This document shows, one piece after another, positions 1,084 through 59,938 of a stretch of 64,000 nucleotides of DNA. The notes beneath the pieces were generated by a model. The model ran no database searches. It worked only from the letters and a program-made list of their open reading frames with translations, and had not been told where the DNA came from. Within the stretch, counting starts at the first letter, position 1. Each line of letters opens with the position of its first letter. Source of the DNA: Candidatus Omnitrophota bacterium (GTDB taxonomy: Bacteria; Omnitrophota; Gorgyraeia; Pluralincolimonadales; Pluralincolimonadaceae); NCBI GenBank assembly GCA_003141835.1, contig PLNR01000005.1, positions 190,289-254,288 on the forward strand, written 5' to 3'. The position numbers and the translations under genes are program-made.

Positions 1084-2189
1084 TGACCGAAAAAGAATTT
1101 TTGATAGTTTTGAATTGTATTCCCGACATAGGTTTTATCAGGTTTAGCAATCTGATGAAGCGCTTTGGAGCGGTTGAAAAGATATTCTCCGCCTCGAAGG
1201 CCGAATTAGAAAAAGTAGACCAGATAGGCCCGAAGGTCTCAAGCGCGATAATAAGTTGCGATAAAGATAAAACGCTCAAGGGCGAGATGAAACTTATCGA
1301 GAAGTGTAAAGTCAAAGTGATCTCTTATTTTGATAAAGATTACCCGGTTAACCTTAAGGATATTTATGACCCTCCGATTATCCTTTACGTAAAAGGGGAA
1401 TTGACGGCCGAAGATAAGTATTCTATAGGCATAGTCGGCTCAAGGCGCGCGAGTCGTTACGGCCTGCAGACCTCGGAGAGGCTTGGTTACGAATTGGCCG
1501 CTCGCGGCATGGCCGTCGTCTCGGGGTTGGCGCGCGGCATAGACGCGGCCGGCCATAAGGGCGCGCTGAAAGCAAAAGGCAGGACGATAGCCGTACTCGG
1601 TAGCGGGCTGGCGAATATCTACCCGGAAGAGCATGCCGGGTTGGCCGAAGAAATCTCAAGGAACGGCGCTGTCGTTTCGGAGTTCCCGATGGCGATGGAG
1701 CCTTATAAAGATAATTTCCCGAGGAGGAACAGGATAATAAGCGGGCTTTCGCTCGGCGTAGTCGTCGTTGAGGCCGCGAAGAATTCAGGCGCTTTGATAA
1801 CGACCGATTTTGCCCTCGAACAGGGGAGGGAACTATTCGCCGTTCCCGGACAGGCGCGCACAGCGACCGCTGCCGGGACGAACATGCTTATAAGGCAGGG
1901 CGCCAAACTCGTCGAGTCGGCAGATGACGTCATCGAAGAATTGGGTGATGTCATCAAAGGCCATATGAAGACGGAAAGGCCGGAAGAGCCGGAGCATATT
2001 CCCGAAGGGTTGGGCCGGCAGGAAGAGGATGTATTCGTGAGATTAAGCGGGACACCCGTAAATATAGATGAGATAGTGGACGGGACAGGGCTTCCCGTCG
2101 CCGAAGTGATGCACAGCCTTACCAAACTCGAGCTCAAAGGCATCATCGCGCAGCTGCCCGGAAAATCGTACGTAAGGAAAAGTTTATGA
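1083..2189 (+). CDS. dprA: DNA processing protein DprA (Smf)
   Basis: Core Rossmann region GIVGSRRASRYGL...VVSGLARGIDAAGH with a C-terminal winged-helix-like tail; classic dprA-topA synteny; start overlaps the aroK stop (ATGA). Confidence 0.9.
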   Translation: MTEKEFLIVLNCIPDIGFIRFSNLMKRFGAVEKIFSASKAELEKVDQIGPKVSSAIISCDKDKTLKGEMKLIEKCKVKVISYFDKDYPVNLKDIYDPPIILYVKGELTAEDKYSIGIVGSRRASRYGLQTSERLGYELAARGMAVVSGLARGIDAAGHKGALKAKGRTIAVLGSGLANIYPEEHAGLAEEISRNGAVVSEFPMAMEPYKDNFPRRNRIISGLSLGVVVVEAAKNSGALITTDFALEQGRELFAVPGQARTATAAGTNMLIRQGAKLVESADDVIEELGDVIKGHMKTERPEEPEHIPEGLGRQEEDVFVRLSGTPVNIDEIVDGTGLPVAEVMHSLTKLELKGIIAQLPGKSYVRKSL

Positions 2190-2386
2190 TAAAGATATGC
2201 GTTAACGGAAAAGATATCCAGGCCGATGACGGCATAACGGTCGCGAGGCTCATCTCGGACCTGAAGGCCGACGTGAAATACGCGGCCGTCGAATTGAACC
2301 TCAATATACTCGACAGGTCGAAGTATGATTCCGTTAAACTTAAAGAGGGCGACAAGGTCGAGATAATCCTGCCTGTAGGCGGCGGC
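2186..2386 (+). other. ThiS/MoaD-like beta-grasp sulfur-carrier domain ending in GGG, in frame with topA with no intervening stop or start
   Basis: 67 aa VNGKDIQ...AAVELNLNILDRSKYDSVKLKEGDKVEIILPVGGG strongly resembles ThiS family proteins including the C-terminal Gly-Gly; the next codons are AAG GGC GGC GCA CTG (KGGAL). Confidence 0.6.
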
Positions 2387-4435: not shown

Positions 4436-5304
4436 TAGACAGATACGTTGAGAAATTCATAAGATATCTTGAGATCGAGAGGAACGCTTCGAAGTATACC
4501 CTCATTAATTATTCGGTCGACCTCAAATCGTTGAGCGAATTCCTCAAGGAAGAGCCGATAGAGAAGGTCGATTACGTCTCCCTGCGCCGGTACCTGGCGC
4601 ACGTAAAGGAACAGAACCTGTCGAAGGTATCGATCGCGCGCAAGATCGCCTCGATAAGGTCTTTCTTCAAGTTCCTCTTCAGGGAAGGGATAATAAAGAA
4701 CAACCCTGCGTCGTCGTTGTCGACGCCTAAACGCGACAAGCACCTCCCGAAATTCCTGGACGAGAAAGAGATAGTCCTGCTCCTTGAGTCTCCGGAGAAG
4801 GAGGGCGAGGCCGGCCTAAGGGACAGGGCGATACTCGAGACGCTTTATTCCACAGGCATAAGGGTAAGCGAACTCGTCGGCCTTAACATGGACCACATCG
4901 ACCAGATAGGCGGGATCATAAAGGTCTTCGGCAAGGGCAAAAAAGAGAGGATCGTGCCGATAGGCGAGAGGGCGCTGCAGGCGATAAGGGATTACCTTAA
5001 GTTCCGCACTTCCAAGGAAGTGCGGGAGAAAGCCCTCTTTTTTAACAAGAACGGCGGCAGGCTCACCGACAGGTCCATAAGAAGGATAATAAATAAATAT
5101 ATAACGAAGGCGAGCATACAACAGAAGATATCGCCGCACACCCTGCGCCACTCTTTCGCCACGCATATGCTCGACCACGGCGCGGACCTAAGGAGTGTGC
5201 AGGAGCTTCTCGGCCACGCCAACCTGTCCTCGACCCAGATCTACACCCATATAACTACCGAAAGGCTGAAGTCCGCGTATACGAAGGCGCACCCGCGGGC
5301 TTAA
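4432..5304 (+). CDS. xerC: Tyrosine site-specific recombinase, XerC/XerD family
   Basis: N-terminal SAM-like domain plus C-terminal RHSFATHMLDHGADLRSVQELLGHANLSSTQIYTH catalytic motif; TTG start overlapping the topA stop. Confidence 0.8.
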   Translation: MIDRYVEKFIRYLEIERNASKYTLINYSVDLKSLSEFLKEEPIEKVDYVSLRRYLAHVKEQNLSKVSIARKIASIRSFFKFLFREGIIKNNPASSLSTPKRDKHLPKFLDEKEIVLLLESPEKEGEAGLRDRAILETLYSTGIRVSELVGLNMDHIDQIGGIIKVFGKGKKERIVPIGERALQAIRDYLKFRTSKEVREKALFFNKNGGRLTDRSIRRIINKYITKASIQQKISPHTLRHSFATHMLDHGADLRSVQELLGHANLSSTQIYTHITTERLKSAYTKAHPRA

Positions 5305-5316
5305 AACCCAAAATAG

Positions 5317-6591
5317 ATGCTCTACGACCTGTTTTTCATGATCTTTTCCGTCATTTACCTGCCGTATTTTTTGGTATCGGGCAAATGGCGGAGTTTCAGC
5401 CGCCAGCGGCTGGGGATCTTCGACGGCGAGACCCGCTCGAAGATAAAGGAGCCTGGCGCGATATGGCTGCATGCCGTCTCTGTCGGCGAGGTCATAGCCA
5501 GCGTCCCGCTTTATGACCAATTAAGAAAAGAACTTCCCGGCGTCAAGATCATCGTCTCGACGGTCACCGCGACCGGGAATAAGATAGCCCGCGAGAGGTT
5601 TAAGGATGCCGCCGCGGTAATATACCTGCCGCTCGACCTAAGCTGGATCACAGGCAGGGTTGTCAATCTTATAAAACCCGGTACCGTGCTCATAGCCGAG
5701 ACCGAGATATGGCCGAATTTCATAACCTCTTTGAAAAAGAACGGCGCCAAAGTCGTGATATTCAACGGGAGGGTCTCGCCCGGTTCTTTCAGGAATTACG
5801 GGATGGTAAAACCACTGCTTAAAGATCTCCTGCAAAAAGTAGACCTTTACCTCATGCAGTCGCAGGCCGACGCAGATAAGATCGTCTCGCTCGGCGCGCC
5901 GAAAGAGGACGTGAAAGTGACGGGCAACCTTAAATATGACGCGGCCCTGATGGGGGGCGCGGGCGACGCTCCCGATATTTTAAGGAAAAAGCTGGGGCTT
6001 GCGGGCGGGGAAAAATTGTTGATCGCGGGTTCGACCAACCCCGGCGAAGAGGAGAAGATATTACGCTGTTACAAAGAGATGGCCGAGGAATTCCCGGAAC
6101 TGCGGCTGGTTATCGCGCCGAGGCATACGGACAGGGCTGGCAGGGTGGCCGGCCTAATCAAGAGCTGCGGATTCATGCCGCGTCTTGTTTCAAGCCCGGA
6201 AACGAAAGCGTTGGGACAGGAAGAAGTTTTGATATTGGATGTGATGGGAAGATTAGCCCGGCTGTATGCCGCCGCCGATATAGTGTTCATCGGAGGGAGC
6301 CTGATAAATAAAGGCGGGCAGAACCCGCTTGAGGCAGCCTACCATTCGAAAGTGGTTTTATTCGGCCCGTATATGCATAATTTTGAGGAGATTGCGGATA
6401 AACTAGTTTCTGCGAGAGGAGCGGTGAAAGTCGGCGACGAAGCGGAGCTCACGGCCTCGCTGCGCGTCCTGCTCGAGAACGATGCCGAGCGGCGCAAGAT
6501 GGGGGAGAATGCGAGGCGGGTCCTGGAATCGAACGCCGGCGCCGCGAAAAAAGATTTTGATCTCATCAAACCGTTGATCGGAAAGCTATGA
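5317..6591 (+). CDS. waaA: 3-deoxy-D-manno-octulosonic acid (Kdo) transferase
   Basis: GAIWLHAVSVGEV...N-terminal motif and GT30 C-terminal region typical of KdtA/WaaA. Confidence 0.85.
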   Translation: MLYDLFFMIFSVIYLPYFLVSGKWRSFSRQRLGIFDGETRSKIKEPGAIWLHAVSVGEVIASVPLYDQLRKELPGVKIIVSTVTATGNKIARERFKDAAAVIYLPLDLSWITGRVVNLIKPGTVLIAETEIWPNFITSLKKNGAKVVIFNGRVSPGSFRNYGMVKPLLKDLLQKVDLYLMQSQADADKIVSLGAPKEDVKVTGNLKYDAALMGGAGDAPDILRKKLGLAGGEKLLIAGSTNPGEEEKILRCYKEMAEEFPELRLVIAPRHTDRAGRVAGLIKSCGFMPRLVSSPETKALGQEEVLILDVMGRLARLYAAADIVFIGGSLINKGGQNPLEAAYHSKVVLFGPYMHNFEEIADKLVSARGAVKVGDEAELTASLRVLLENDAERRKMGENARRVLESNAGAAKKDFDLIKPLIGKL

Positions 6592-7673
6592 GCGAAAAGA
6601 TAAGGCGGTATTTTTATTCGTTAATGACCGATGAGGCTCAAGGCCCGGCAGCAGCTGCCATGAAGCTGCTCCTTTACGGGCTTTCATTTGATTACGCCTC
6701 TGTCCTGGCGGTCACGAAATTCCTTTTTAGAAAAGGGATCGTCAGGCCGTACCGTCCCAAATGCAAGGTTATCAGCGTAGGGAATATAACGCTGGGCGGG
6801 ACGGGAAAGACCCCTTTGACCGTGGAGATAGCGCGCAGGTTCACGGAAAAAGGGAAGAAAGTCGTGGTCCTTACGAGAGGTTACATGAAGGACAAGAATA
6901 CGGGCGTGGCCGATGAAGCCGAGGTCTTTAAAAGCCTGCTTAAGGGTGTTCCCGTCCTCGTGGGGCGCGACAGGATAGCGTCCGCAAAAGAGGCCGAGAA
7001 GAAATACTCGCCCGATATTATATTGCTCGATGACGGTTTCCAGCACTGGCGGCTCGAGAGGGATATCGACCTGGTCGCGGTCGCGGCCGACAACCCTTTC
7101 GGCAACGGGAAATTGATTCCCAGGGGCATCCTGAGGGAGCCGGCCTCGGCGCTCAAGAGGGCAGATATCATCGTTGTGACGAAAGTCCTCCCGGAAGAGG
7201 CGAGCCAGGGCAGGGCAGAGATATTAAAGGACAGGATAAAAAAAATAAATCCAGGCGCCTCGGTATTCAGCGCTTCGTACCGGCCGCAGCGCCTTTATGA
7301 CGCGGAGGAGGGCTCGGAGGCTGCGATCGATTGCCTGAACAACAAGGCGGTAGCGCTTTTATGCGCCATCGGCGACCCGGCTTCTTTCGAGGATACTGTC
7401 GTATCGCTCGGCGCGAATATCGCCGCGGCTTATTTTTTCATGGACCACCACATCTTTTCTTCCAGGGAGATCGGGAAGATCGTCGCCGAGTGCAAGGCTA
7501 AGCGCATAGATACGATAGTGACTACCGAGAAGGACCTGCCCCGCCTGAGGCAGTCAGGCGCAGCGTACCGGGGATCGGGAGTGAAGATATTGGCGTTGGC
7601 GGTGGAGATAAAAATAGATAACGAGGAAGGATTTTTTGGGAGACTGGATACTTTATCTACTCGTAAGGCTTGA
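6588..7673 (+). CDS. lpxK: Tetraacyldisaccharide 4'-kinase
   Basis: VISVGNITLGGTGKTP P-loop characteristic of LpxK; start overlaps the waaA stop. Confidence 0.85.
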   Translation: MSEKIRRYFYSLMTDEAQGPAAAAMKLLLYGLSFDYASVLAVTKFLFRKGIVRPYRPKCKVISVGNITLGGTGKTPLTVEIARRFTEKGKKVVVLTRGYMKDKNTGVADEAEVFKSLLKGVPVLVGRDRIASAKEAEKKYSPDIILLDDGFQHWRLERDIDLVAVAADNPFGNGKLIPRGILREPASALKRADIIVVTKVLPEEASQGRAEILKDRIKKINPGASVFSASYRPQRLYDAEEGSEAAIDCLNNKAVALLCAIGDPASFEDTVVSLGANIAAAYFFMDHHIFSSREIGKIVAECKAKRIDTIVTTEKDLPRLRQSGAAYRGSGVKILALAVEIKIDNEEGFFGRLDTLSTRKA

Positions 7674-9564
7674 GGCGTCGTTATTCCGCCTGCTTCCGCT
7701 TAGGCTTTCCCTCTGGATGGCCGGGCGGTTCGGGAGCCTCATATATTATACGATGGGCAGGCGTAAGACCGTCGCTTACGCCGGCCTGCGCGCCGCGTTC
7801 AGGGGCAGGTATACGCCGGCGCAGGCGAACCGCATAATAAAAGAGATATACCAGAACCTCGCGCAGTCTTACATAGAACTCCTGAAATTCCCGCAGTTCG
7901 ACGACGCCTACGTCAAAAAATACATCAAGATAGAAGGCCTCGAGAAGGTAAAGGCTGCGGTGAAAGAGGAAGAGAGGGGAGTCATCTTCCTCACCGCGCA
8001 TTTTGGGAACTGGGAACTGTGCTCATTGACCGGTTCGACTATGGGCTTCAAGATGAACGTGCTGGCGCGTTTCCAAAAACTCAAGAGGCTCAACGGCTAC
8101 CTGAACAAGATGCGCGGCTCGAAGGGCGCCAACGTCATATTCAAGGACGACGCGATCGCCGAGACGATAGACGCGTTGAAGAGACACGAGGCGGTAGGCA
8201 TCCTGTCCGACCAGGACGGCGGCAAGAGGGGCGAGTTCGTTAATTTCCTCGGGCGGCCCGCGTCGACCCCGAAAGGGGTGGCGCATTTTTCATTGAGGAC
8301 GGGCGCGCCGGTATTTCCCGTCGCTATAATCCGCGAAAAAGGCCCTTACCACAGGCTCGTGATAGGCGATGACATATCAGTCATGCCGTCCGGGGATATA
8401 AAGAAGGATATCCATGAGATACTCCAGAGGTTCGCCGATTCCCTTTCGAAATATATCGAGAGATATCCCGGGCAATGGCTATGGCTGCATAAGCGCTGGA
8501 AATCCACCCCCGCCAGATATATCCTCGTATTAAATGACGGCAGGGCCGGACATTTCAAGCAGTCCCGTGCCCTTGCCGGCGCCATTAGGAAAGCGCGCGC
8601 GGAAAGAGGTTTTTCCCAGGAAGACACGGTAATAGGGACGGTCGATGTCAAATTCAAGAACGGCTTCGCGAGGGCGGTCTTCGATATAGGTTCGTTCCTC
8701 GGGTTCGGCATCCACAGCCTGTCATGCTGTTTCCCGAAGGAAGTATACGATAACCTTAGGGCGGCTTACGCGGATTACGTGATATCATGCGGCGCATCGC
8801 TCGCCGGCGTCAACCTCGCTTTTAAGAGAGAGCTCGGCGCAAGGTCGGTGGTCATCATGAAACCGAATATATTCAATATAAAGGATTTTGACCTCGCGGT
8901 CATTCCGGTCCATGACAAAGTGGGAGCGTCAGGTAACGTCGTCTTCACCAAGGGCACTGTGACTGGCCTAGACGAAGATTCCCTCCGCGAATACGGGGAG
9001 AAACTTAAAAAGCGGGTCGCCGTGGACAAGGGCAAAGTCCTCGGAGTGCTGCTGGGCGGAGATTCCAAGTCTTACACATTCGAGAAGGAACTGGCGATAG
9101 AGGTTGTCGACCGGGTCATGGCCGCGGCCGCGGATATCGGCGCCGACGTGCTCATAACGACCTCAAGGAGGACGTCGCACGCGGTCGAGTTCGCGCTGAA
9201 GGAGCGTTACGGTAAGTCCGAGAGGGTTAAACTCCTCCTGGTCGCGAACGAAAATAATTTCGAAGGGGCGGTCGAGGGGATCCTCGCGCTCTCTGACATG
9301 ATCGTCGTCTCGGGAGAGTCGGTCGCGATGGTGACCGAAGCCGTGAGTTCCGGGAAACCCGTATCGGTATTCATGCCGCAAAAGACTAATAAATTTTCGG
9401 GAACGAAACAGGAGGAATCCGTGCGCAACCTGGAAAAGGAAGGGTTGCTCGTGGTTAATGCGGATATTGCTGCTGATATAAGACAGCGCATTAACCACAA
9501 ACAGGCCGATATATTAAGCGGGGACATGAAAGCTATCCGGGCCGGGCTGGAAAAGATACTATGA
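7636..9564 (+). CDS. Bifunctional protein: N-terminal LpxL/HtrB-type lipid A acyltransferase fused to a C-terminal ELM1/DUF1022-like predicted glycosyltransferase-fold domain
   Basis: N-terminal ~300 aa has the LPLAT motif HFGNWEL and the C-terminal YPGQWLWLHKRWK typical of LpxL; the C-terminal ~340 aa begins VLNDGRAGHFKQSRALAGAI, resembling bacterial ELM1-family proteins. Confidence 0.6.
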   Translation: MGDWILYLLVRLEASLFRLLPLRLSLWMAGRFGSLIYYTMGRRKTVAYAGLRAAFRGRYTPAQANRIIKEIYQNLAQSYIELLKFPQFDDAYVKKYIKIEGLEKVKAAVKEEERGVIFLTAHFGNWELCSLTGSTMGFKMNVLARFQKLKRLNGYLNKMRGSKGANVIFKDDAIAETIDALKRHEAVGILSDQDGGKRGEFVNFLGRPASTPKGVAHFSLRTGAPVFPVAIIREKGPYHRLVIGDDISVMPSGDIKKDIHEILQRFADSLSKYIERYPGQWLWLHKRWKSTPARYILVLNDGRAGHFKQSRALAGAIRKARAERGFSQEDTVIGTVDVKFKNGFARAVFDIGSFLGFGIHSLSCCFPKEVYDNLRAAYADYVISCGASLAGVNLAFKRELGARSVVIMKPNIFNIKDFDLAVIPVHDKVGASGNVVFTKGTVTGLDEDSLREYGEKLKKRVAVDKGKVLGVLLGGDSKSYTFEKELAIEVVDRVMAAAADIGADVLITTSRRTSHAVEFALKERYGKSERVKLLLVANENNFEGAVEGILALSDMIVVSGESVAMVTEAVSSGKPVSVFMPQKTNKFSGTKQEESVRNLEKEGLLVVNADIAADIRQRINHKQADILSGDMKAIRAGLEKIL

Positions 9565-11663
9565 AGATAATATATATAATACCAAGGCTTAATCCGGGCG
9601 GCGTGGAGCTGGGTGTGGTCGATTACTCCTCGAGGATGGTAAAACTCGGCCACAATATCGTCGTCATATCCAACGGCGGGGAGTTGCTAAGGCAGCTCGA
9701 GGCCAACGGCATAAAACATTATACCCTCCCGGTCCACAGCAAGAACCCGCTGACCGTCCTCAGCATGATACCGGCGGTCAGGAAAATACTGGTGCAGGAG
9801 AAGGCCGATATCCTGAACGCGGAGAGCAGGGTCCCGGCGATAATAGGTTATTACGCGGCGCGGAGCGCCGGCGTCGTCTTCATCACTACCTGCCACGCAT
9901 ATTATTCGAAGAAGCCATTAAGTTTCAGCAAGGTCATGGGCTGGGGCAAGCTCGTCATCGCTGTAAGCCAGGTGATAGCCAAGCACATGATAGACAATTT
10001 CAACGTCCCGTTCCGCAGGATAAGGCTCGTCTACAGGGGCGTTGATGTCGAGAAATTCAAATACAGGGAGCCGGACGAGTCGGTAAAACATGAATATACG
10101 ATAGGCATAGTAGGCAGGCTGACGCCGATAAAAGGGCATAAATATTTCATACGGGCGGTATCGAAAGCGGTAAAATACGTCCCGCGCATCAAGGCCCTCA
10201 TCGTGGGCGATGCCCCGCCGGAGAAGGAGAAGTACAAACAGGAGCTTGAGAGTCTTGTGAACAGGCTCGGCCTCTCCAGGTATGTAGAATTCCTCGGCGG
10301 CAGGAGCGATATCCCGGACATCCTCGCCAGGCTCGACCTCCTCGTCATGGCGAGCATAGTGCCTGAGGGGTTCGGCAGGGTCGTGGTGGAAGCGTTCGCC
10401 TCCGGCGTGCCGGTAGTTGCGACCGGCGTGGGCGGGGTCATGGAGATAATGAGGGACGGCGAGAACGGGCTTATCGTCCCGCCGGAAGACCCGCAGCCTA
10501 TGGGCGATGCGATCGTGAGGCTGCTGAAGGACCGTAAATTCGCCAGGGAGATCGCGCAGCGCGCCAGGAAAGACGTCGAGGAGAGGTTCAATCTTGACAG
10601 GCTGATAACCGAGACGTTGAGGGTATACGAGGAGGCGCTCGAGGTAAAAAGGATACTTATAATAAAGATAAGCGCCGTCGGCGACTGCGTCCTCGCCACG
10701 CCTTCGATCCGCGCCATCCGCCGTAAATATCCAAAGGCATATATCGCGCTGCTGATAGGCAGGGTAGAGAGCCAGGCGCTTAAGGGATGCCCGTATATCG
10801 ACGAGATGATAATATATGACAGGGAAGGCAGGGATAAGGGATGGCTCAGGTTCTTCGAACTGGCCGCCGAGGTAAGAAGGTACGGCTTCGAGGAAGTGGT
10901 CGACCTCCAGAACAGCTCAAAGAGCCACCTCTTCGCTTTCCTCAGCGCGGCCCCGCACAGGTACGGATACAGGAAAGGGAAATACTGGTTCCTGCTTAAC
11001 AGGACTATAGGGGAAGCCAAAGGGCCGCTCGCGCCGGTAGACCACCAGTTCAGGGTGTTGTCGATGATGGGCATCGAGGACGCGCCGAAGAAACTCGAGC
11101 TCTGGCCTTCGGCCGCGGATATTGAAAATGTAAAAAATATGCTTGATGCGGAGTGGGTGGGCGAGAACCAGACGCTCATAGGGATAAATCCGTCGGCGAG
11201 CCCGCGCTGGGCCACTAAAAAATGGCCCGCCGAGAATTTCGCGAGGCTTTGCGACCTGCTGGGCGAGCGGGAGATCAGGACCGTCCTCATAGGCGGCAGG
11301 TCTGAAGCCGACGCGAAGGCCGCGGCCGATATATTATCGCTCGCGAGGTCGAAGCCCATAAACCTGGCCGGGAGGACGTCGCTCCCCGAACTCGCGGCGC
11401 TCGTGAAAAGGTTCAAGTGCCTCGTTACAAGCGACAGCGCGCCTATGCACATGGCTGCTGCCATGTCTACGCCTTTTGTGGCGCTATTCGGCCCGACCGA
11501 TCCCGACCGCCACCTGCCGCCTTCGGGAAATTGCGCGGTCGTAAAGCGGGAGTTAGGGTGTTCGCCGTGCTATAAACCTGTATGTTCGGATATAAGGTGC
11601 ATGAGGGAGATAACCGTGGAAGACGTGTTGAAAGCGATCGACGGGGTGATGTCGCCGAAATGA
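9561..11663 (+). CDS. Fusion glycosyltransferase: N-terminal GT4 (GT-B, EX7E-type) domain plus C-terminal GT9 ADP-heptose:LPS heptosyltransferase domain
   Basis: N-terminal 360 aa with GT4 features (…SIVPEGFGRVVVEAFASGVPVVATGVGG…); C-terminal ~340 aa begins RILIIKISAVGDCVLATPSIRAI and carries the GT9 C-terminal TSDSAPMHMAAAMSTPFVALFGPTDP motif. Confidence 0.75.
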   Translation: MKIIYIIPRLNPGGVELGVVDYSSRMVKLGHNIVVISNGGELLRQLEANGIKHYTLPVHSKNPLTVLSMIPAVRKILVQEKADILNAESRVPAIIGYYAARSAGVVFITTCHAYYSKKPLSFSKVMGWGKLVIAVSQVIAKHMIDNFNVPFRRIRLVYRGVDVEKFKYREPDESVKHEYTIGIVGRLTPIKGHKYFIRAVSKAVKYVPRIKALIVGDAPPEKEKYKQELESLVNRLGLSRYVEFLGGRSDIPDILARLDLLVMASIVPEGFGRVVVEAFASGVPVVATGVGGVMEIMRDGENGLIVPPEDPQPMGDAIVRLLKDRKFAREIAQRARKDVEERFNLDRLITETLRVYEEALEVKRILIIKISAVGDCVLATPSIRAIRRKYPKAYIALLIGRVESQALKGCPYIDEMIIYDREGRDKGWLRFFELAAEVRRYGFEEVVDLQNSSKSHLFAFLSAAPHRYGYRKGKYWFLLNRTIGEAKGPLAPVDHQFRVLSMMGIEDAPKKLELWPSAADIENVKNMLDAEWVGENQTLIGINPSASPRWATKKWPAENFARLCDLLGEREIRTVLIGGRSEADAKAAADILSLARSKPINLAGRTSLPELAALVKRFKCLVTSDSAPMHMAAAMSTPFVALFGPTDPDRHLPPSGNCAVVKRELGCSPCYKPVCSDIRCMREITVEDVLKAIDGVMSPK

Positions 11664-18603: not shown

Positions 18604-21781
<3,178 letters not shown>

Positions 21782-21785
21782 GGAT

Positions 21786-22742
21786 ATGATGAAGCGGGCG
21801 AAGGAAGTACTCAGGATCGAGGCCGACGCGGTCTCCTCGCTTATAAAGCGGGTCGACGCGAATTTTGAAAAGGCGGTCAGGTTGATGCTTGCCTGCAAAG
21901 GCAAGGTGGTCGTGACCGGAATGGGAAAACCCGGCTTTATAAGCGCAAAAATTTCGGCGACATTGTCGTCTACCGGGACGCCCAGCCTATACCTGCATCC
22001 GGCCGACGCGATACACGGCGACCTGGGCAGGGTCACGAAAGACGATGTCGTCCTGGCCATATCGAATTCCGGAGAGACCGAGGAGATAATGAGGCTCCTG
22101 CCGACTTTAAGGAAGATCGGCGCTAAGCTCATAGCCATGGTAGGGAATACGGAATCCTCGCTCGCAAGGTACAGCGATGTCGTGCTTAACGTTGCGGTCA
22201 AGAGGGAGGCGTGTCCCCTGAACCTCGCGCCTACCGCTTCGACGACAGCGATGCTCGCCTTTGGGGATGCGCTCGCGATAGCGCTTCTCGACCGCCGCGG
22301 TTTTAAAGAAGAAGATTTTGCGTTCTATCATCCGGGCGGCTCCCTGGGCAAGAGGCTTATCCTCAAGGTCGGAGATATCATGAGGAAAGGCAAAGCAAAC
22401 CCTGTGGTGAAAGAGGACGAGAAGGTAAAGACCGTCCTCCTTAAGATAACCGAGGCGAGGGCCGGTTCGGCAGGCGTCGTTAACAAGAAAGGTGTTCTCG
22501 TCGGCATATTCACCGACGGCGACCTGAGGCGGCATCTGGGCAAGGACGCTGCACTCCCGCTCAGGCAGGTCAGGGAGGTCATGACCAGGAGCCCTATCAC
22601 GATATCGAAAGAGATGCTCGCCGCGGACGCGTTCCGGATCCTGCGCGAGAAGAAGATAGACGAGATACCGGTCGTCGATGGTAAGAGGAGGCCCATAGGC
22701 CTTGTCGACGTGCAGGACCTCCTGAAGGCGGGGCTCGTTTAG
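21786..22742 (+). CDS. kdsD: Arabinose-5-phosphate isomerase (KpsF/GutQ family, SIS + tandem CBS)
   Basis: SIS domain GKVVVTGMGKPGFISAKI followed by a CBS pair. Confidence 0.85.
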   Translation: MMKRAKEVLRIEADAVSSLIKRVDANFEKAVRLMLACKGKVVVTGMGKPGFISAKISATLSSTGTPSLYLHPADAIHGDLGRVTKDDVVLAISNSGETEEIMRLLPTLRKIGAKLIAMVGNTESSLARYSDVVLNVAVKREACPLNLAPTASTTAMLAFGDALAIALLDRRGFKEEDFAFYHPGGSLGKRLILKVGDIMRKGKANPVVKEDEKVKTVLLKITEARAGSAGVVNKKGVLVGIFTDGDLRRHLGKDAALPLRQVREVMTRSPITISKEMLAADAFRILREKKIDEIPVVDGKRRPIGLVDVQDLLKAGLV

Positions 22743-56256: not shown

Positions 56257-57579
56257 ATGAGATGGACGCAAGCTTTAATCCCGACACTTAAAGAAGACCC
56301 GGCAGAGGCGGAGATAATAAGCCACAAGCTTATGATCCGCGCCGGGCTTATCCGCAAGCTCACCGCAGGCGCTTACACATACCTGCCGCTCGGATGGCGC
56401 GTCCTCAACAAAGTAGAAAATATAATCCGCGAGGAGATGGACGCCAAAGGCGCGCAGGAGATCCTGATGCCCGCGCTCCAGCCCTCCGAATTATGGAAGG
56501 AATCCGGAAGATACACCGCCCTCGGCGAAGATATGATCAAGTTCATCGATCGCCACGGCAAGGAGACTATCCTGGGCCCGACCCACGAGGAGATAATAAC
56601 CGACCTCGTCAGGGGAACTGTAAAGTCCTACAAAGAACTACCCCTCATACTTTACCAGATACAGGTCAAATTCCGCGACGAGATACGCCCGCGCTCCGGT
56701 GTCTTGCGCTCGCGCGAGTTCATAATGAAGGACGCCTATTCATTCGACCGCGACACCACCGGCCTCGACAAAAACTATAAAAAAATGTACGACGCCTATT
56801 GCGCGATATTCACCCGCTGCGGCCTGAAGTTTTTGGCCGTTGAGGCCGATACCGGCGTAATGGGCGGCGACGTCTCGCACGAGTTCATGGTCCTATCCGA
56901 GAGCGGCGAGGATACGCTCGCCCATTGCGCGAAATGCGGATACGCGGCAAGCTTGGATAAACATCTTTTGAATCTTAATGTCAAAAAGGATTTCAAGATA
57001 GAAACTCTTGACGATATCAAGAAGATAGACAAGGGTGACAAGTGCCCGAAATGCGGCACCGAGATAAAACTTGAACAGGCGATCGAGATAGGCCATGTCT
57101 TCAAGCTCGGCACCAAATATTCGAAGGCGATGTCCGCCAATTTCCTCGGCGAGGACGGCAAGGAAAGAATATATATAATGGGCTGCTACGGCATTGGCGT
57201 CAACAGGATAATCGCCGCGCTCATCGAGCAGAGCCACGACAAGGACGGCATCATCTGGCACCAGTCGATAGCGCCCTATACAGTCGCAATACTCCCGCTC
57301 AACACCTCTCACACAGCTTCGATGGAGGCAGCCGAGAAGATATACGCCGAGCTGACCTCCGCCGGAATCGAATGCATCCTCGACGACCGCCCCGAACGCG
57401 CCGGCGTAAAGTTCAAAGACTCCGACCTCATCGGCTTCCCGATCCAAATAATCATAGGTGAAAAGAATATCGCCAACGGCGAAGTCGAGATCAAAGACCG
57501 CAAGACTAAGGAACTTAAAATAGTTAAGATAGATGAGGCGGTTAATACAGTAAAGCAAGTTTTAGCCCTTAGTTCGTAG
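56257..57579 (+). CDS. proS: Prolyl-tRNA synthetase (short form lacking the INS editing domain)
   Basis: Class II aaRS motifs 1-3 plus anticodon-binding domain; 440 aa. Confidence 0.9.
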   Translation: MRWTQALIPTLKEDPAEAEIISHKLMIRAGLIRKLTAGAYTYLPLGWRVLNKVENIIREEMDAKGAQEILMPALQPSELWKESGRYTALGEDMIKFIDRHGKETILGPTHEEIITDLVRGTVKSYKELPLILYQIQVKFRDEIRPRSGVLRSREFIMKDAYSFDRDTTGLDKNYKKMYDAYCAIFTRCGLKFLAVEADTGVMGGDVSHEFMVLSESGEDTLAHCAKCGYAASLDKHLLNLNVKKDFKIETLDDIKKIDKGDKCPKCGTEIKLEQAIEIGHVFKLGTKYSKAMSANFLGEDGKERIYIMGCYGIGVNRIIAALIEQSHDKDGIIWHQSIAPYTVAILPLNTSHTASMEAAEKIYAELTSAGIECILDDRPERAGVKFKDSDLIGFPIQIIIGEKNIANGEVEIKDRKTKELKIVKIDEAVNTVKQVLALSS

Positions 57580-57748
57580 TTCTTAGTAAAGCGGTCCCCT
57601 GCTTCGGGATTCATTCTTCGCTCGGATCTCCTCGCCGCTGTTTCACAGCGACTGCGGGGATAACTCGCTCAGAATAGAATCCGCTCGCGGGGCCCCTTTT
57701 ATCGGTGCAGCCGTCATTCCCGCGCAAGAGGGAATCTAGGAATAAAGC

Positions 57749-57774
57749 GGAATGTTCCAAAGTCACACGTCCCC
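57749..57774 (+). repeat. Island repeat A1 (ggaatgttccaaagtcacacgtcccc)
   Basis: 22/26 identical to A2 at 58664-58689; its ACGTCCCC core is the reverse complement of the GGGGACGT core of repeats B1/B2. Confidence 0.6.
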
Positions 57775-57805
57775 AAAATAATATTAACTATCAAAGGAGA
57801 ACAAT

Positions 57806-58612
57806 ATGCCAGAACCAGTTGGCATACGAGCAGCGAAAATAGGCGCCGCCGCTGTTATTATTGCAGCCATTGTCACAGGGCTTTTTTTAGTACTTAAGCC
57901 TTCTCAGAGCTCTCAGCAGAAAGCTACCATAGATGGAGCCAACAACCCAATTGCCATGTTTGGTACGGCTCGCGACGTAACTATTAGCTACAACATGCCT
58001 GATACGGCTACGCGAGAGGCAGTTGACTTCCTGAAAAAGAAGGCTGAAGATACCGATGCAGCGATCGGACTCACGCGGAAAGAAATTCTGCTTCTTTCTA
58101 AAGCCCTCCAAGATCTCGACCAAAGAACTTCCGGGCTACAAAAACTTCCCGATGGGCGAACCTTGTTTGGCAGTTTAATTTCAGGAAACCCAACAATCGT
58201 TATCCAAGAGCATGAGGCCGCAGCAACCCTGTTTTCTGCGGGGGACTACAAAACCGCTTTAGAACATTCCCAGAGAGCCATAAAAGCCTATGAGGATGCG
58301 AAACAGATACCGGCCAGTATGAGTACAGGAGATCTGGGACCAGAAGACGTCAGCAAACTATATTACCTGGCCGCATTAATTTCCCAAAAGCTTCAAAATA
58401 AAGAATTGGTATACAAGTATGCAGTGAAAGCTGCAGAGATACAACCATCATCCGAACATCAAGTGTTTCTTGCTACGGCTCTCTTTAACATTGGGAGAGT
58501 TGATGAAGCTATCGCAGTTATAAGTAAAGCCGTAGAAATGGAACCGAGTAATGGAGAGTACAGGCGGTTGAAGGATGAAATGTCTAAACGGATGGAAATT
58601 AAAAATAAATAG
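57806..58612 (+). CDS. Membrane-anchored TPR-repeat protein (hypothetical)
   Basis: N-terminal TM (AAAVIIAAIVTGLFLVL) and three TPR-like helical repeats in the C-terminal half; lower GC than flanks. Confidence 0.6.
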   Translation: MPEPVGIRAAKIGAAAVIIAAIVTGLFLVLKPSQSSQQKATIDGANNPIAMFGTARDVTISYNMPDTATREAVDFLKKKAEDTDAAIGLTRKEILLLSKALQDLDQRTSGLQKLPDGRTLFGSLISGNPTIVIQEHEAAATLFSAGDYKTALEHSQRAIKAYEDAKQIPASMSTGDLGPEDVSKLYYLAALISQKLQNKELVYKYAVKAAEIQPSSEHQVFLATALFNIGRVDEAIAVISKAVEMEPSNGEYRRLKDEMSKRMEIKNK

Positions 58613-58628
58613 GGGACGTGTCAAAAAG
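58605..58628 (+). repeat. Island repeat B1 (ataaataggggacgtgtcaaaaag), overlapping the TPR gene stop
   Basis: 22/24 identical to B2 at 59226-59249; the 11-mer ataggggacgt also occurs at 39113-39123. Confidence 0.6.
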
Positions 58629-58663
58629 GCAAGGTACCCGTTAGGGTAGACAGGTCGCAGAGC

Positions 58664-58689
58664 GGAGTGTCCCAAAGTCATACGTCTCT
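58664..58689 (+). repeat. Island repeat A2 (ggagtgtcccaaagtcatacgtctct)
   Basis: Direct repeat of A1. Confidence 0.6.
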
Positions 58690-58862
58690 AGTTTCATTCA
58701 CCAGACGCGTGGTACACTTGACGTAAATAAGGACGACATCGTCCGATTGTGCCCCGGATGTAGGAATAAGCCCACCTGCGGGGAGTGGGATAAGGAACAG
58801 GAACTTACGTGTTTTTGCCTGGAGAGCGTGTTTTAAATTAGAACAGAAGGAAGCAAACTGAT

Positions 58863-59219
58863 ATGGAAAAAATGTTAATTTTATTTTTGCTGGCAACCAT
58901 TATTATGATAATTATTATAGTAAAATCGAAAATTCGATTATTTAGTATGTACTTTTTTATTGTCGGAGCCCTAATGCCGTTAATATTATTTGCTTTTTGT
59001 TTTATTATTAGAAATACTGCCTTACCGGCTAAAATCTTTTGGATAGTTAGTTTCCCGGCCTTTATTCTTTGCGTGCTTTCATCGATTGGGGGTATTATTG
59101 AAATTTTTGCACGAAAAATAACTAGAAATTATTTATACCTTCCGATTAGCGGTCTGGTTTGTTCGCTCTTTTTATGGTTATTTTTGGTTAGTGCTTTGAG
59201 AATAGTGAATGGTGCCTAA
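58863..59219 (+). CDS. Small hydrophobic membrane protein (3-4 TM), hypothetical; very AT-rich
   Basis: 118 aa, strongly hydrophobic, ~30% GC versus ~58% for the genome. Confidence 0.5.
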   Translation: MEKMLILFLLATIIMIIIIVKSKIRLFSMYFFIVGALMPLILFAFCFIIRNTALPAKIFWIVSFPAFILCVLSSIGGIIEIFARKITRNYLYLPISGLVCSLFLWLFLVSALRIVNGA

Positions 59220-59225
59220 CAGAAG

Positions 59226-59249
59226 ATAAATAGGGGATGTTTCAAAAAG
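59226..59249 (+). repeat. Island repeat B2 (ataaataggggatgtttcaaaaag), containing the ATG of the next ORF
   Basis: Direct repeat of B1. Confidence 0.6.
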
Positions 59250-59524
59250 TGACAAAGGGAAGAATAGCATCTGCGGTAGTAGCGGTCTTTTACGTCGTTC
59301 TCGCGTCTTTGGCGGGAGGGCCGGAGGCAGCATTTAAAGTTTTTATATTTATCCTGCTTCCGCTCGGATGCATTTGGTACGGCCAAGCTCTCGGGTCATT
59401 TAAAGGCATTATGCGCGGACAATACGTTGACACCCCTACCCCCGGCTGCCTTGTAACATTTCTCGGATGGATAATCTTGTTACTTCCTGTGGTTATGGTG
59501 GTTTTTAATTTACTTAAAGGATAA
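59237..59524 (+). CDS. Small membrane protein (3 TM), hypothetical
   Basis: 95 aa hydrophobic ORF whose start lies within repeat B2. Confidence 0.45.
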   Translation: MFQKVTKGRIASAVVAVFYVVLASLAGGPEAAFKVFIFILLPLGCIWYGQALGSFKGIMRGQYVDTPTPGCLVTFLGWIILLLPVVMVVFNLLKG

Positions 59525-59544
59525 AAAGTGACAGGTCATAAAAC

Positions 59545-59775
59545 TTGGTAAAAATCTATTCTCCCAAAAATGAGGCCGAGCTTTCCATTATTCGCAGTAT
59601 CCTTGACAGCGAGGGCATCGCGTATTATATCCATAATGATGATTTCGGTTCTCTGAACGTAGGGTCCAGCATGTCCTCATTTAACGAAAAAACTATTATG
59701 GTCGATGAAAAGGACGCGGAAAGGGCAAAAGAGCTCGTTTCGGATTATCTGAAAACTACAAAAGAAGGACCGTAA
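59545..59775 (+). CDS. DUF2007-family small protein (putative signal-transducing protein); TTG start
   Basis: VKIYSPKNEAELSIIRSILDSEGIAYYIHND matches the DUF2007 N-terminal pattern. Confidence 0.55.
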   Translation: MVKIYSPKNEAELSIIRSILDSEGIAYYIHNDDFGSLNVGSSMSSFNEKTIMVDEKDAERAKELVSDYLKTTKEGP

Positions 59776-59813
59776 GTAGCTTAAATCCTCGTATTTTACC
59801 CCCAAAAAACCCC

Positions 59814-59842
59814 TTGACACCATAGCTCCATCGTAGTATACT
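59814..59842 (+). promoter_or_regulatory. Sigma-70-type promoter with perfect consensus hexamers TTGACA-N17-TATACT upstream of rimP-nusA-infB
   Basis: ttgaca 59814-59819, 17-nt spacer, tatact 59837-59842; hexamers identical to those of the promoter at 23263. Confidence 0.6.
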
Positions 59843-59877
59843 AACTTTACATTCAGCACCACTTTTTAAAAGGAGAA

Positions 59878-59904
59878 GTGGGTAAAAAACTACCCGCTTT
59901 TTTT
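59878..59904 (+). terminator. Leader hairpin plus U-tract (gtgggta-aaaaac-tacccgc then ttttttt) between the promoter and rimP; possible attenuator or tiny RNA 3' end
   Basis: 7-bp stem with one G-U pair followed by a T7 run at 59898-59904, ~35 nt upstream of the rimP ATG. Confidence 0.5.
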
Positions 59905-59938
59905 GTTGTCTTTTTCCGGAAAACAGCCCTAAATAGCC

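What the first reader, a model, noticed from the sequence alone, without database searches (positions are those of the whole stretch)
57580..59938. Low-GC cassette-like island between proS and rimP bounded by recurring A/B repeats with an inverted ACGTCCCC/GGGGACGT core
GC drops from ~58% to ~30-45% over four small co-directional genes: a membrane-anchored TPR protein, two tiny multi-TM proteins and a DUF2007 protein. The genes are framed by direct repeats: A1 (57749-57774) and A2 (58664-58689) match at 22/26 and each lies upstream of a gene; B1 (58605-58628) and B2 (59226-59249) match at 22/24 and each sits at a gene's stop. A and B carry the same 8-10 nt core in opposite orientation (tcacacgtcccc versus ggggacgtgtca), so each gene is flanked by short inverted repeats, as in a cassette or MITE-like module. 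B1 reads ACG where B2 has the downstream gene's ATG, and the sequence after B1 translates to a degenerate copy of the 59237 ORF N-terminus (TCQK versus MFQK), suggesting a decayed duplicated cassette. The function of this gene set is undescribed. A membrane-module accessory, immunity or defence role is speculation only.
Basis: partly seen in the sequence, partly recalled or inferred. Interest (0 to 1): 0.7.

Follow-up and report, generated by a model that had tools for sequence, protein, structure and literature searches.

The report
Hairpin repeats punctuating a variable gene islet
Between two housekeeping genes of an uncultured Omnitrophota bacterium lies a small foreign-looking block of accessory genes, and the "A/B repeats" around them are the two arms of an apparently undescribed 60-80-nt hairpin repeat found at the joints where close relatives carry different genes.

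Summary
A1/A2 match at 23/26, B1/B2 at 24/27, and A1 and B1 share a perfect 10-nt inverted core. The islet has the lowest GC in the window (43% against a 54.5% median).

A and B are not two repeat families. They are the right and left arms of one imperfect-palindrome element. B1+A2 (58612-58689) is a full 78-nt copy. A1, B2 and a remnant at 59522-59542 are lone arms. About two dozen full copies and a dozen lone arms occur in metagenome contigs. They almost always lie 1-42 nt after the stop codon of a same-strand gene. The family has no Rfam match and no literature hit.

The proS-rimP junction is a variable slot. Other Omnitrophota have a 14-179 nt gap there, and three relatives with 89-91% identical ProS each carry different genes. 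Homologues of the TPR gene elsewhere are canonical integron cassettes. This window has no attC site and no integron integrase.

The "decayed duplicated cassette" reading is wrong. B2's ATG lies inside the arm, and orthologues of gene 3 start at GTG 59249.

Best reading: a REP/REPIN-like repeat family whose arms mark recombination and indel joints in a variable accessory-gene slot. A dedicated cassette recombination system is not excluded.

The parts
57587..57750 (+). Nested insertion of 148 nt (57595-57742) flanked by an 8-nt direct repeat TAAAGCGG (57587-57594 and 57743-57750). It carries a roughly 100-nt long hairpin and an ATTCCC-N8-GGGAAT palindrome (57716-57735). It splits the proS stop from arm A1.
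   Evidence: In relative L121 the proS stop is followed directly by TAAATAAAGCGGAGTGTCCC with no insert. Repeat coordinates are, the fold, and the palindrome. The palindrome resembles an inverted pair in L026.
57746..57774 (+). A1: lone right arm of the hairpin element (AGCGGAATGTTCCAAAGTCACACGTCCCC), 31 nt upstream of the TPR start.
   Evidence: Model R1 gives a weak half-hit at 57726-57778 (16 bits). It is orthologous to the proS-proximal right arm of L121.
57806..58612 (+). Gene for a 268-aa protein with an N-terminal TM segment and TPR repeats. Its last 7 codons and its TAG stop come from the sequence leading into arm B1.
   Evidence: Pfam TPR hits and TM scan. There are 20 homologues. Those at 56-71% identity sit in integron-type cassettes in L085/L086, L212, L214 and L216. 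In the homologue contigs read (L083/L084, L212, L214, L216) the ORF stops right after ...MSK/...SK/...FK (TAAGTGA), where the window's ORF reads on for 7 more codons.
58612..58689 (+). B1+A2: one complete 78-nt hairpin element. Left arm GGGGACGTGTCAAAAAGG (58612-58629); 19-nt insertion CAAGGTACCCGTTAGGGTA (58630-58648); inner stem and loop GACAGGTCGCA (58649-58659); right arm GAGCGGAGTGTCCCAAAGTCATACGTCTCT (58660-58689).
   Evidence: Model R1 scores it 69 bits, E about 4e-16/4e-17, but it was part of the model seed. A 97% identical copy lies in L121 at 867-790 on the minus strand, between unrelated genes. Alignment with 14 other copies is. The sense-strand fold is -26.5 kcal/mol (z -3.0); the antisense fold is -17.1 (z -0.5).
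58697..58837 (+). Non-coding mosaic upstream of gene 2. 58697-58721 (TTCACCAGACGCGTGGTACACTTGA) recurs in L088 at 39-63. 58780-58837 is a remnant homologous to the 3' end of a 73-aa ORF in L121.
   Evidence: Alignment. Sequences. The 73-aa ORF has no Pfam match.
58863..59219 (+). Gene 2: 118-aa ORF with four predicted TM segments, 30.8% GC. It is an orphan.
   Evidence: A search of 1.84 billion representative proteins found only itself and one repetitive partial hit. No Pfam or NCBIfam match. GC, TM segments.
59229..59254 (+). B2: lone left arm (AATAGGGGATGTTTCAAAAAGTGACA), fused to the start of gene 3. The ATG at 59237 lies inside the arm.
   Evidence: Model R1 with filters off scores 59229-59278 at 12.7 bits, third best in the window. 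In L088 the same gene is preceded by a longer left arm plus spacer.
59249..59524 (+). Gene 3: small membrane protein. It is 91 aa from GTG 59249, or 95 aa if the ATG at 59237 is used.
   Evidence: Only two homologues exist (77% and 74% identity). Both begin MTKGRI. In L088/L089 the gene sits between other genes and hairpin arms. Its C-terminus (..NLLKG) differs from that of the homologues (..FSQKQ), and the stop codon lies in the next arm remnant.
59522..59542 (+). B3: remnant of the inner half of a left arm (TAAAAAGTGACAGGTC) plus the junction GACAGGTCATAAA, directly upstream of the DUF2007 start (TTG 59545).
   Evidence: The pattern search finds it as one of two matches at up to 2 mismatches (0.16 expected); the other, at 21358, shows no other arm features. 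The 13-mer occurs elsewhere only in L088/L089, upstream of the gene 3 homologue. Model R1 with filters off scores 59523-59571 at 10.5 bits.
59545..59775 (+). DUF2007 gene, 76 aa. It is truncated at the 3' end relative to close homologues of 109-111 aa.
   Evidence: Pfam PF09413, E = 6e-14. Homologues P0027 (80% identical, 109 aa) and P0028 (60%, 111 aa) and the L005 copy all carry a C-terminal extension that is absent here.
59814..59904 (+). Right boundary of the islet: the native rimP-nusA-infB promoter (TTGACA-17-TATACT, 59814-59842) and a leader hairpin with a U-tract (59871-59904).
   Evidence: A 23-nt block is identical in L001 at 10726-10748. Fold.

Best explanation
The proS-rimP junction of this Omnitrophota lineage is a variable slot for small, low-GC accessory genes. 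All of them point the same way as the flanking operons. The slot is punctuated by copies and half-copies of one repeat family.

The repeat unit is a roughly 27-nt imperfect palindrome, (ATAAATA)GGGGAC-GTGTC-AAAAAGG-GACAS... It occurs singly, or as an inverted doublet that folds into a 59-78-nt hairpin (GGGGACGTGTC / A-rich 5x5 internal loop / GGGACAC / variable loop).

In form this is a REP/REPIN-like extragenic palindrome family. It sits just after stop codons on the sense strand, and its left flank supplies TAA and TAG stops in two reading frames.

Shown: the anatomy of the family, its strand and position bias, its clustering in the islet, the variability of the slot, and the coincidence of homology breakpoints with arm edges.

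Inferred: the near-identical 25-30-nt arms and their hairpins act as preferred break and rejoin points, through homologous or illegitimate recombination, slippage at hairpins, or repeat insertion. Gene modules are gained, replaced and eroded at these points. Some modules come from the integron cassette pool. This would leave the full element, three lone arms, the ORF remnant, the truncated DUF2007 gene and the nested 148-nt insertion seen here. In mRNA the sense-strand hairpin probably acts as an intercistronic or 3'-end stem-loop.
For: - One element, two arms. Contigs retrieved with the left-arm pattern alone carry the right arm 30-60 nt downstream (for example L112 GCGGAGTGTCCCAAAGTGACACGTCCCT).
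- Family size. Model R1 finds copies that were not in its seed at 38-75 bits: L132, L146, L120, a second copy in L101, a second copy in L206, L095 and L153.
- Compensatory variants keep the stem paired: GTTTC/GAAAC in L146 and L120, and G-C changed to A-T in the second L101 copy.
- Lone left arms are common: L093, L094, L100, L104, L124, L138, L142, L149, L184, L204.
- Position. 21 of 23 left arms have a same-strand ORF of at least 100 aa ending 1-125 nt upstream, 18 of them within 42 nt (p = 6.6e-5). The next gene is usually on the same strand and often starts 5-63 nt downstream.
- Variable slot. The gap is 14-179 nt in five Omnitrophota MAGs. L001, L005 and L121, with ProS 89-91% identical, each hold different genes there. 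Their islets are also low in GC.
- Breakpoints. Homology between the window and L121 ends exactly at the end of A1 and at both ends of the 78-nt element. Homology between the window and L088 ends inside or at the arms.
- Erosion: the ORF remnant, the truncated DUF2007 gene and the nested insertion with an 8-nt duplication.
- REPIN criteria, namely inverted doublets forming hairpins, singlets as remnants and compensatory changes, are taken from PMC3116915.
Against: - No REP-associated transposase (RAYT) or any other transposase or recombinase was seen near any copy.
- Copies are not scattered through extragenic space. Four of the five best model hits in 64 kb lie inside the 2.4-kb islet, and there are none in a further 10 kb. 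REPINs are typically dispersed in hundreds of copies.
- The two arms are not true inverted copies. The 7-nt centre is A-rich on the sense strand in both arms (AAAAAGG and CCAAAGT).
- Several short contigs show gene-hairpin-gene-hairpin arrays: L101, L137, L088, L206, L143. Together with the arm asymmetry, this fits a strand-specific recombination site or an RNA element as well as, or better than, a selfish repeat.
- No consistent target-site duplication flanks the element.
Confidence: 0.5

Rival explanations
1. The hairpin doublets are recombination sites of a dedicated site-specific system, functionally like attC or Acinetobacter pdif sites. A recombinase encoded elsewhere (Xer-like or unknown) would recognise each arm (11 nt, a 6-7 nt A-rich spacer, 11 nt) or the folded hairpin (outer stem / unpaired spacer / inner stem). 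It would exchange gene modules at the arms and so build cassette arrays outside integrons.
For: - Architecture. Outer stem, 5x5 unpaired internal loop, inner stem and variable loop mirror the R box, unpaired spacer, L box and variable end of attC. Each arm alone has the layout of a tyrosine-recombinase core site.
- The spacer has the same polarity in both arms.
- Strict co-orientation with genes, and a start at or overlapping the stop codon.
- Gene-hairpin-gene-hairpin arrays.
- The same 78-nt variant lies between unrelated genes in the window and in L121, and its left half lies upstream of the gene 3 homologue in L088.
- Gene 3 keeps flanking arms but has different neighbours in two genomes.
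- The genes concerned circulate as integron cassettes elsewhere.
- Arms alternate in orientation (A1, B1, A2, B2), as pdif sites do around dif modules (PMC13141974).
- A XerC/D-like gene is present in the window.
Against: - No recombinase is linked to any array.
- The arms show no resemblance to the dif/pdif binding-site sequences tabulated in PMC13141974 or to the attC cores.
- Junctions are imprecise. The TPR gene and gene 3 lose their native 3' ends and borrow stops from arm-adjacent sequence. Lone and truncated arms and a 49-nt deletion relative to L088 are present. A conservative site-specific system would regenerate whole sites.
- Many copies are solitary and sit next to ordinary genes such as helicase, nuclease and hydrolase genes.
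Confidence: 0.2
2. The element is mainly a cis-acting RNA structure. It would be an intercistronic or 3'-end stem-loop, or a protein-binding hairpin, that stabilises, processes or translationally insulates the upstream cistron. Its link with variable genes would be secondary.
For: - Sense-strand bias and placement 1-42 nt after stop codons.
- A-rich loop residues are conserved on the sense strand in both arms.
- The window copy folds well only on the sense strand. The three right-arm substitutions in the outer stem are C-to-T changes that become G-U pairs.
- Stems are kept paired by compensatory and wobble changes.
Against: - No Rfam family matches, even at E <= 1.
- The wobble pattern is what neutral transitions opposite a G/T-rich left arm would give: 15 changes at the 8 positions where a right-arm transition keeps the pair, against 2 at the 2 positions where it breaks it, for a neutral expectation of 13.6 to 3.4 (my count).
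- RNA structure alone does not require near-identical sequence across unrelated contigs.
- It does not explain the lone arms or the arm-edge breakpoints.
- There is no U-tract, so it is not an intrinsic terminator.
Confidence: 0.2
3. The islet is a degenerate canonical integron array, that is, a cluster of attC sites that has lost its integrase.
For: Homologues of the TPR gene are first or internal cassettes with GTTAGSC / GGCTAAC...GTTRRRY cores, and one lies next to a degraded intI. A homologue of L001's first islet gene (85% identical) sits between attC-like repeats in L104, and that array ends with a lone left arm.
Against: No RYYYAAC...GTTRRRY pair was seen by eye or by a crude scan in the islet, but that scan also missed the integron-type sites in L086, L104, L212 and L216, so it proves little on its own. 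No IntI is present in the window. The hairpin ends are GGGGAC.../...GTCCCC. The only GTTAGGG lies in the loop of a small hairpin inside the 19-nt insertion.
Confidence: 0.04
4. One reading: a duplicated cassette that has decayed, or ordinary promoter/RBS motifs or chance matches.
For: B2 overlaps an ATG that has a purine-rich stretch just upstream. B-like strings of the form TAAATA(A)GGGGA precede gene starts in L001 and L005.
Against: Similarity between the B1 and B2 contexts ends with the arm. Orthologues of gene 3 start at the GTG. The arms belong to a family with strong model scores in unrelated contigs. The motif occurs nowhere else in the window.
Confidence: 0.03

Closest known systems
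REP sequences, REPINs and E. coli BIMEs (with RAYT transposases)
   Same: A short imperfect palindrome in extragenic DNA at the 3' ends of genes. It occurs as singlets and as inverted doublets that fold into 60-110-nt hairpins in ssDNA or mRNA. Singlets look like remnants. Compensatory changes keep the stem paired (PMC3116915; here).
   Different: No RAYT was found. Copies cluster in a variable islet instead of being dispersed. There is a strong sense-strand bias and stop-codon proximity. The arm centres are not complementary, being A-rich on the same strand in both arms.
Integron gene cassettes and attC sites (including integrase-less attC clusters)
   Same: Small, co-oriented genes, often without their own promoter, each followed by an imperfect hairpin that starts at or overlaps the stop codon. 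The hairpin has two stems around an unpaired spacer and a variable end. The same genes (the TPR gene and L001's first islet gene) are true integron-type cassettes elsewhere.
   Different: No RYYYAAC/GTTRRRY cores and no IntI. Lone and rearranged arms are present, including an inverted A-then-B order in L121. Junctions cut into the ends of ORFs.
Acinetobacter pdif sites and dif modules (XerC/XerD)
   Same: Sites of about 28 nt built as arm, 6-7-nt spacer, arm. They flank small accessory modules in alternating orientation, and module content is shuffled between relatives (PMC13141974).
   Different: The sequence is unrelated to the XerC/XerD binding consensus. The location is chromosomal and between housekeeping operons. 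The sites mostly occur as tight inverted pairs 8-35 nt apart. No Xer dependence has been shown.
Bacterial MITEs (for example Correia, ERIC/IRU, RUP)
   Same: Short non-coding repeats with terminal inverted repeats that are co-transcribed with neighbouring genes. The nested 148-nt insertion at 57595-57742, with its 8-nt duplication, behaves like one.
   Different: The A/B hairpin has no consistent target-site duplication and is only 59-78 nt long.

Membership tests
REP/REPIN | Short imperfect palindrome (about 20-40 nt) located in extragenic DNA | tested here: met
   Each arm carries GTGTC-N7-GACAC within a conserved stretch of about 27 nt. Of 37 left arms, 3 lie inside a long ORF.
REP/REPIN | Inverted doublets separated by a spacer that fold into a hairpin; singlets occur as remnants; compensatory changes are seen | tested here: met
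   About two dozen doublets of 59-78 nt with fold z-scores of -7 to -9. About a dozen lone left arms. Compensatory variants in L146, L120 and L101.
REP/REPIN | Tens to hundreds of copies dispersed over the extragenic space of one genome | tested here: inconclusive
   In about 74 kb of this genome all four arm sites lie within 2.4 kb. The rest of the 443-kb contig and of the MAG could not be read.
REP/REPIN | A cognate RAYT (Y1/HUH transposase) gene, usually flanked by the repeats | not testable with these tools
   None appeared among the top families from 116 ORFs near elements, or among 20 individually scanned ORFs.
Integron attC / cassette array | Conserved cores R'' RYYYAAC and R' GTTRRRY at the hairpin ends | tested here: not met
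   The element ends are GGGGACGTGTC and GACACGTCCCC. No core pair was seen in the islet.
Integron attC / cassette array | An integron integrase (IntI) and attI at the head of the array | tested here: not met
   tblastn with IntI fragments from L086 finds only a XerC/D-like ORF at 4432-5304. proS sits directly upstream of the islet.
Integron attC / cassette array | Co-oriented compact cassettes, each ORF followed by its own hairpin | tested here: inconclusive
   This holds for the TPR gene here and for the arrays in L101, L137 and L088. Gene 2, gene 3 and DUF2007 have only half arms.
pdif / dif modules | Sites that match the XerC-6 nt-XerD binding consensus | tested here: not met
   The layout is similar (11 + 6/7 + 11 nt), but there is no sequence resemblance to the pdif sites listed in PMC13141974 (compared).
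pdif / dif modules | Modules bounded by inversely oriented sites, with crossover inside the spacer | tested here: inconclusive
   The orientation alternates A1, B1, A2, B2. The crossover position cannot be determined from the few relatives available.
MITE | Terminal inverted repeats plus a target-site duplication of fixed length | tested here: not met
   The flanks of 15 aligned hairpin copies show no consistent duplication. The nested 148-nt insertion, a different element, does have an 8-nt duplication.
Known structured RNA (Rfam 15) / tRNA | A match to a curated covariance model | tested here: not met
   No relevant hit at E <= 1 in the window region or in eight element-bearing loci. No tRNA or tmRNA was found.
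Intrinsic terminator | A GC-rich stem followed by a U-tract on the transcribed strand | tested here: not met
   The stem is followed by AAAATAAT or AAGATA. The terminator scan did not flag it on the + strand.

The most novel reading that the evidence does not exclude
The hairpin doublets are the recombination sites of a cassette-shuffling system that does not depend on an integron integrase. Each arm, or the folded hairpin with its unpaired A-rich spacer, would be a core site for a recombinase encoded elsewhere. Omnitrophota would use it to capture genes, including former integron cassettes, into co-transcribed arrays at fixed chromosomal slots such as proS|rimP.
Probability: 0.15. Interest if true: 0.75.

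Novelty: new member of a known kind. Interest (0 to 1): 0.4.

Why it matters
Omnitrophota are uncultured, so little is known about how their genomes gain genes.

This locus gives three concrete things:
- a fixed chromosomal slot whose content differs among genomes with about 90% identical ProS;
- a conserved, strand-specific hairpin repeat with no Rfam match and no literature hit for its sequence, which sits at the joints;
- evidence that genes move between classical integron cassettes and this hairpin-bounded context.

If the arms are only REP-like debris, this is a useful annotation and a source of mis-called starts, such as the gene 3 ATG. If a recombinase recognises them, this would be a second cassette-type system besides integrons and dif modules.

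Tried and rejected
- **Rfam and tRNA.** Rfam at E <= 1 on the region and on eight element-bearing loci gave only spurious miRNA and lncRNA hits. No tRNA or tmRNA was found.
- **Literature.** Searching for the arm sequences returned only unrelated primer matches.
- **Viral contigs.** Two chance matches with no extended similarity.
- **Metagenome scan.** It returned 120 stretches. Many are chance or unrelated hairpins, such as the L116-type GGGGACGTGTCAAAAAGGATGTCCCC and the ccctctgccatagg... group, and were set aside.
- **attC scan.** My crude regex scan found nothing anywhere, including in true integron loci. It is uninformative, and I relied on reading the cores directly.
- **Flanking genes.** Pfam on 116 + 20 ORFs near elements showed diverse families, with no transposase or recombinase among the 25 families listed or in the 20 ORFs scanned singly.
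- **Gene 2.** No homologues, so its reality is unproven.
- **HNH endonuclease idea.** From memory I thought the 73-aa ORF of L121 was an HNH endonuclease fragment. Pfam does not support that, so I dropped it.
- **G-U wobbles as evidence for RNA selection.** Rejected, because neutral transitions opposite a G/T-rich arm give the same pattern (my count).
- **L001 B-like strings.** I treat the strings at about 10255 and about 10645 as possible degenerate arms only.
- **Taxonomy.** The organisms behind most element-bearing metagenome contigs could not be identified.

Full report
**Origin and setting**

The window is identical to part of a 443-kb ENA contig and a 50-kb Logan contig. Its ProS is 90-91% identical to those of two MAGs labelled Candidatus Omnitrophota (L001, L005).

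The local gene order is uppS-cdsA-dxr-rseP-ispG-proS, then the islet, then rimP-nusA-infB-tyrS/trpS-like, all on the + strand.

**Checking the observation**

The repeats are real.
- A1/A2 match at 23/26 and B1/B2 at 24/27.
- Each pattern has only its two copies in 64 kb at up to 3 mismatches, with none expected in shuffles.
- The 10-nt inverted core is perfect between A1 and B1.

The composition is foreign.
- The islet is 43.2% GC, the lowest of any 2359-nt window (median 54.5%).
- GC3 is 29-47% in the islet genes, against 63-70% in ispG, proS, rimP, nusA and infB.
- The flanks are 52-55% GC, not about 58%.

The genes are as described. Pfam confirms TPR repeats and DUF2007. A hydropathy scan supports the membrane segments.

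**What A and B are**

B1 and A2 lie 32 nt apart and pair with each other. A metagenome scan with the B core returned many chance hits. More than 25 contigs, however, share an extended element:

(ATAAATA)GGGGACGTGTC-AAAAA-GGGACAC-[8-35 nt loop]-GTGTCCC-AAAG(T)-GACACGTCCCC

So A and B are the two arms of one hairpin element (alignment).

A covariance model built from 15 copies finds further copies that were not in its seed, at 38-75 bits.

In the window, run with filters off, the model's best hits are:

| Site | Coordinates | Bits |
|---|---|---|
| Full copy B1+A2 | 58608-58693 | 69 |
| A1 | 57726-57778 | 16 |
| B2 | 59229-59278 | 12.7 |
| Coding-region hairpin (noise) | 22409-22443 | 11.8 |
| Remnant before DUF2007 | 59523-59571 | 10.5 |

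No copy occurs in the next 10 kb to the right. The family is absent from Rfam, and the arm sequences give no relevant literature hit.

**Anatomy of the element**

- Each arm contains GTGTC-N7-GACAC and can fold on its own. Short single-hairpin forms exist in L143, L173 and L177.
- The two arms together form a long hairpin: an outer stem of 10-12 bp, a 5x5 internal loop and an inner stem of about 7 bp.
- The centre of each arm is A-rich on the same strand (AAAAAGG and CCAAAGT). The arms are therefore not simple inverted copies.
- Variants keep the pairing: GTTTC/GAAAC in L146 and L120, and G-C changed to A-T in the second L101 copy.
- The window copy and copies in two related contigs (L121, L088) share a 19-nt insertion in the left arm.

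**Position and orientation**

Of 23 left arms with an ORF of at least 100 aa within 150 nt upstream, 21 have that ORF on the same strand. In 18 of those the ORF ends 1-42 nt before GGGG (p = 6.6e-5). The next gene is usually co-directional and often starts 5-63 nt after the element.

The left flank, ATAAATAG, supplies stop codons in two frames. In the window the TPR ORF ends at that TAG.

Several short contigs show gene-hairpin-gene-hairpin arrays (L101, L137, L088, L206, L143). Longer contigs mostly hold single copies next to ordinary genes.

**The slot is variable**

proS and rimP are 14-179 nt apart in five Omnitrophota MAGs. Relatives with 89-91% identical ProS differ completely at this position:

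| Genome | Content after proS |
|---|---|
| L001 | TM protein, DUF4430 and SnoaL_2 genes, with a B-like start right after the proS stop |
| L005 | 501-aa MORN-like gene, then a full-length DUF2007 gene |
| L121 | Right arm, 7 nt, left arm, then five unrelated genes, then a 97% identical copy of the window's 78-nt element |

These islets are also low in GC.

Homology between genomes stops at the arm edges.
- Window against L121: at the end of A1 and at both ends of the 78-nt element.
- Window against L088: within or at the arms flanking gene 3.

**Erosion inside the islet**

- A 148-nt insertion with an 8-nt duplication separates proS from A1.
- 58780-58837 is a remnant of an ORF that is intact for 73 aa in L121.
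- Gene 3 most likely starts at GTG 59249, so B2's ATG is arm sequence.
- Relative to L088 the window lacks 49 nt between the arm and that start.
- Gene 3 and the TPR gene both take their stop codons from arm-associated sequence.
- The DUF2007 gene is 76 aa, against 109-111 aa in its homologues.
- Gene 2 is an orphan.

**Link to integrons**

The TPR family occurs elsewhere as integron-type cassettes. In L085/L086 the TPR gene follows a degraded intI in the same orientation and is followed by a strongly folding attC (TAAC...GTTAGGC) and a HicAB-like cassette. In L212, L214, L216 and L083 it is preceded by GTTAGSC. In L212 and L216 it is also followed by GGCTAAC...GTTRRRY; L214 has TCTAAC after the stop.

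In L104 a homologue of L001's first islet gene (85% identical) lies between attC-like repeats. That array ends with a lone left arm and a terminator.

The window itself has no such cores and no IntI. It has only a XerC/D-like gene at 4432-5304.

**Interpretation**

In form the element meets the structural criteria of REP/REPIN repeats: singlets, hairpin-forming inverted doublets, extragenic location and compensatory changes (PMC3116915). The copy-number and RAYT criteria could not be tested.

The imprecise junctions and half-arms argue for break and rejoin at repeats or hairpins, not for a conservative site-specific reaction. On the other side, four features keep an attC-like or pdif-like recombination role open (PMC13141974): the clustering in a variable slot, the strict sense orientation, the polar A-rich spacer and the cassette-like arrays. 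The same features also keep an RNA-level role open.

I put about 0.5 on REP/REPIN-like repeats acting as passive recombination and indel joints. I put about 0.2 each on a dedicated recombination site and on a primarily RNA element. The last two are not mutually exclusive with the first.

**Verdict**

The object is a new member of the extragenic-palindrome kind, sitting in an ordinary though nicely resolved variable gene slot. Interest is moderate.

Noticed in passing
window 59814-59938 (and L001 10680-10771): The rimP-nusA-infB leader has a near-consensus promoter (TTGACA-17-TATACT, 59814-59842). It is followed by a hairpin with a U-tract (59871-59904) just before the rimP start. An upstream stem (CCACTTTTT...AAGTGG, about 59860-59882) overlaps that hairpin, so the two could be alternatives. 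A 23-nt block is identical in L001. This looks like a transcription attenuator for the nusA operon.
   Followed up: partly
window 57595-57742: A 148-nt insertion flanked by an 8-nt direct repeat TAAAGCGG. It holds a roughly 100-nt long hairpin and an ATTCCC-N8-GGGAAT palindrome (GTCATTCCCGCGCAAGAGGGAATC). A 92% similar 24-mer occurs as an inverted pair in a Rickettsiales MAG locus (L026 622-645 and 666-689). This is probably a separate MITE-like repeat family. It also creates a spurious ORF at 57705-57842.
   Followed up: partly
window 56257-57579 versus L005 458-2161: ProS is 440 aa here (441 aa in L001, 429 aa in L121) but 567 aa in L005, which is 91% identical in the shared parts. The short forms lack about 130 aa between ...CAKCGYAAS.DK and ...DKCPKCG. 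From general knowledge, that is where the bacterial ProS editing (INS) domain sits. Close relatives therefore differ in having this domain.
   Followed up: no
L085/L086 4831-5451: A degraded integron integrase split into two ORFs, with the middle of the protein missing. It lies on the same strand as its cassettes and directly upstream of the TPR cassette. A HicB/HicA-like pair follows as the next cassette, and a DDE transposase lies further downstream.
   Followed up: partly
L121 3478-3415 (minus strand): Right after the proS stop the arms occur in the reverse order: right arm, AATGGTA, left arm. This forms a perfect 28-bp-stem hairpin (-46 kcal/mol). It is the only such arrangement seen, and I have no explanation for how it arose.
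   Followed up: partly
window 58630-58648; L121; L088 698-716: The 19-nt insertion in the left arm (CAAGGTACCCGTTAGGGTA) is itself a small hairpin. It contains GTTAGGG, one base off the integron R' core GTTRRRY and similar to the GTTAGSC boxes in front of the TPR cassettes. This could be coincidence or a scar of integrase activity.
   Followed up: no
L083 (GCA_040961595.1, JBFOND010000002.1) 1600-9500: Downstream of tig-clpP lies a run of a dozen small co-directional genes of mostly unknown function with 200-450-nt spacers. It includes a TPR homologue preceded by GTTAGCC. It looks like another cassette-type array at a housekeeping junction. Model R1 finds no A/B hairpins there.
   Followed up: partly
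window 4432-5304: A XerC/XerD-like tyrosine recombinase gene lies immediately downstream of topA. It is the only recombinase detected in the window.
   Followed up: partly
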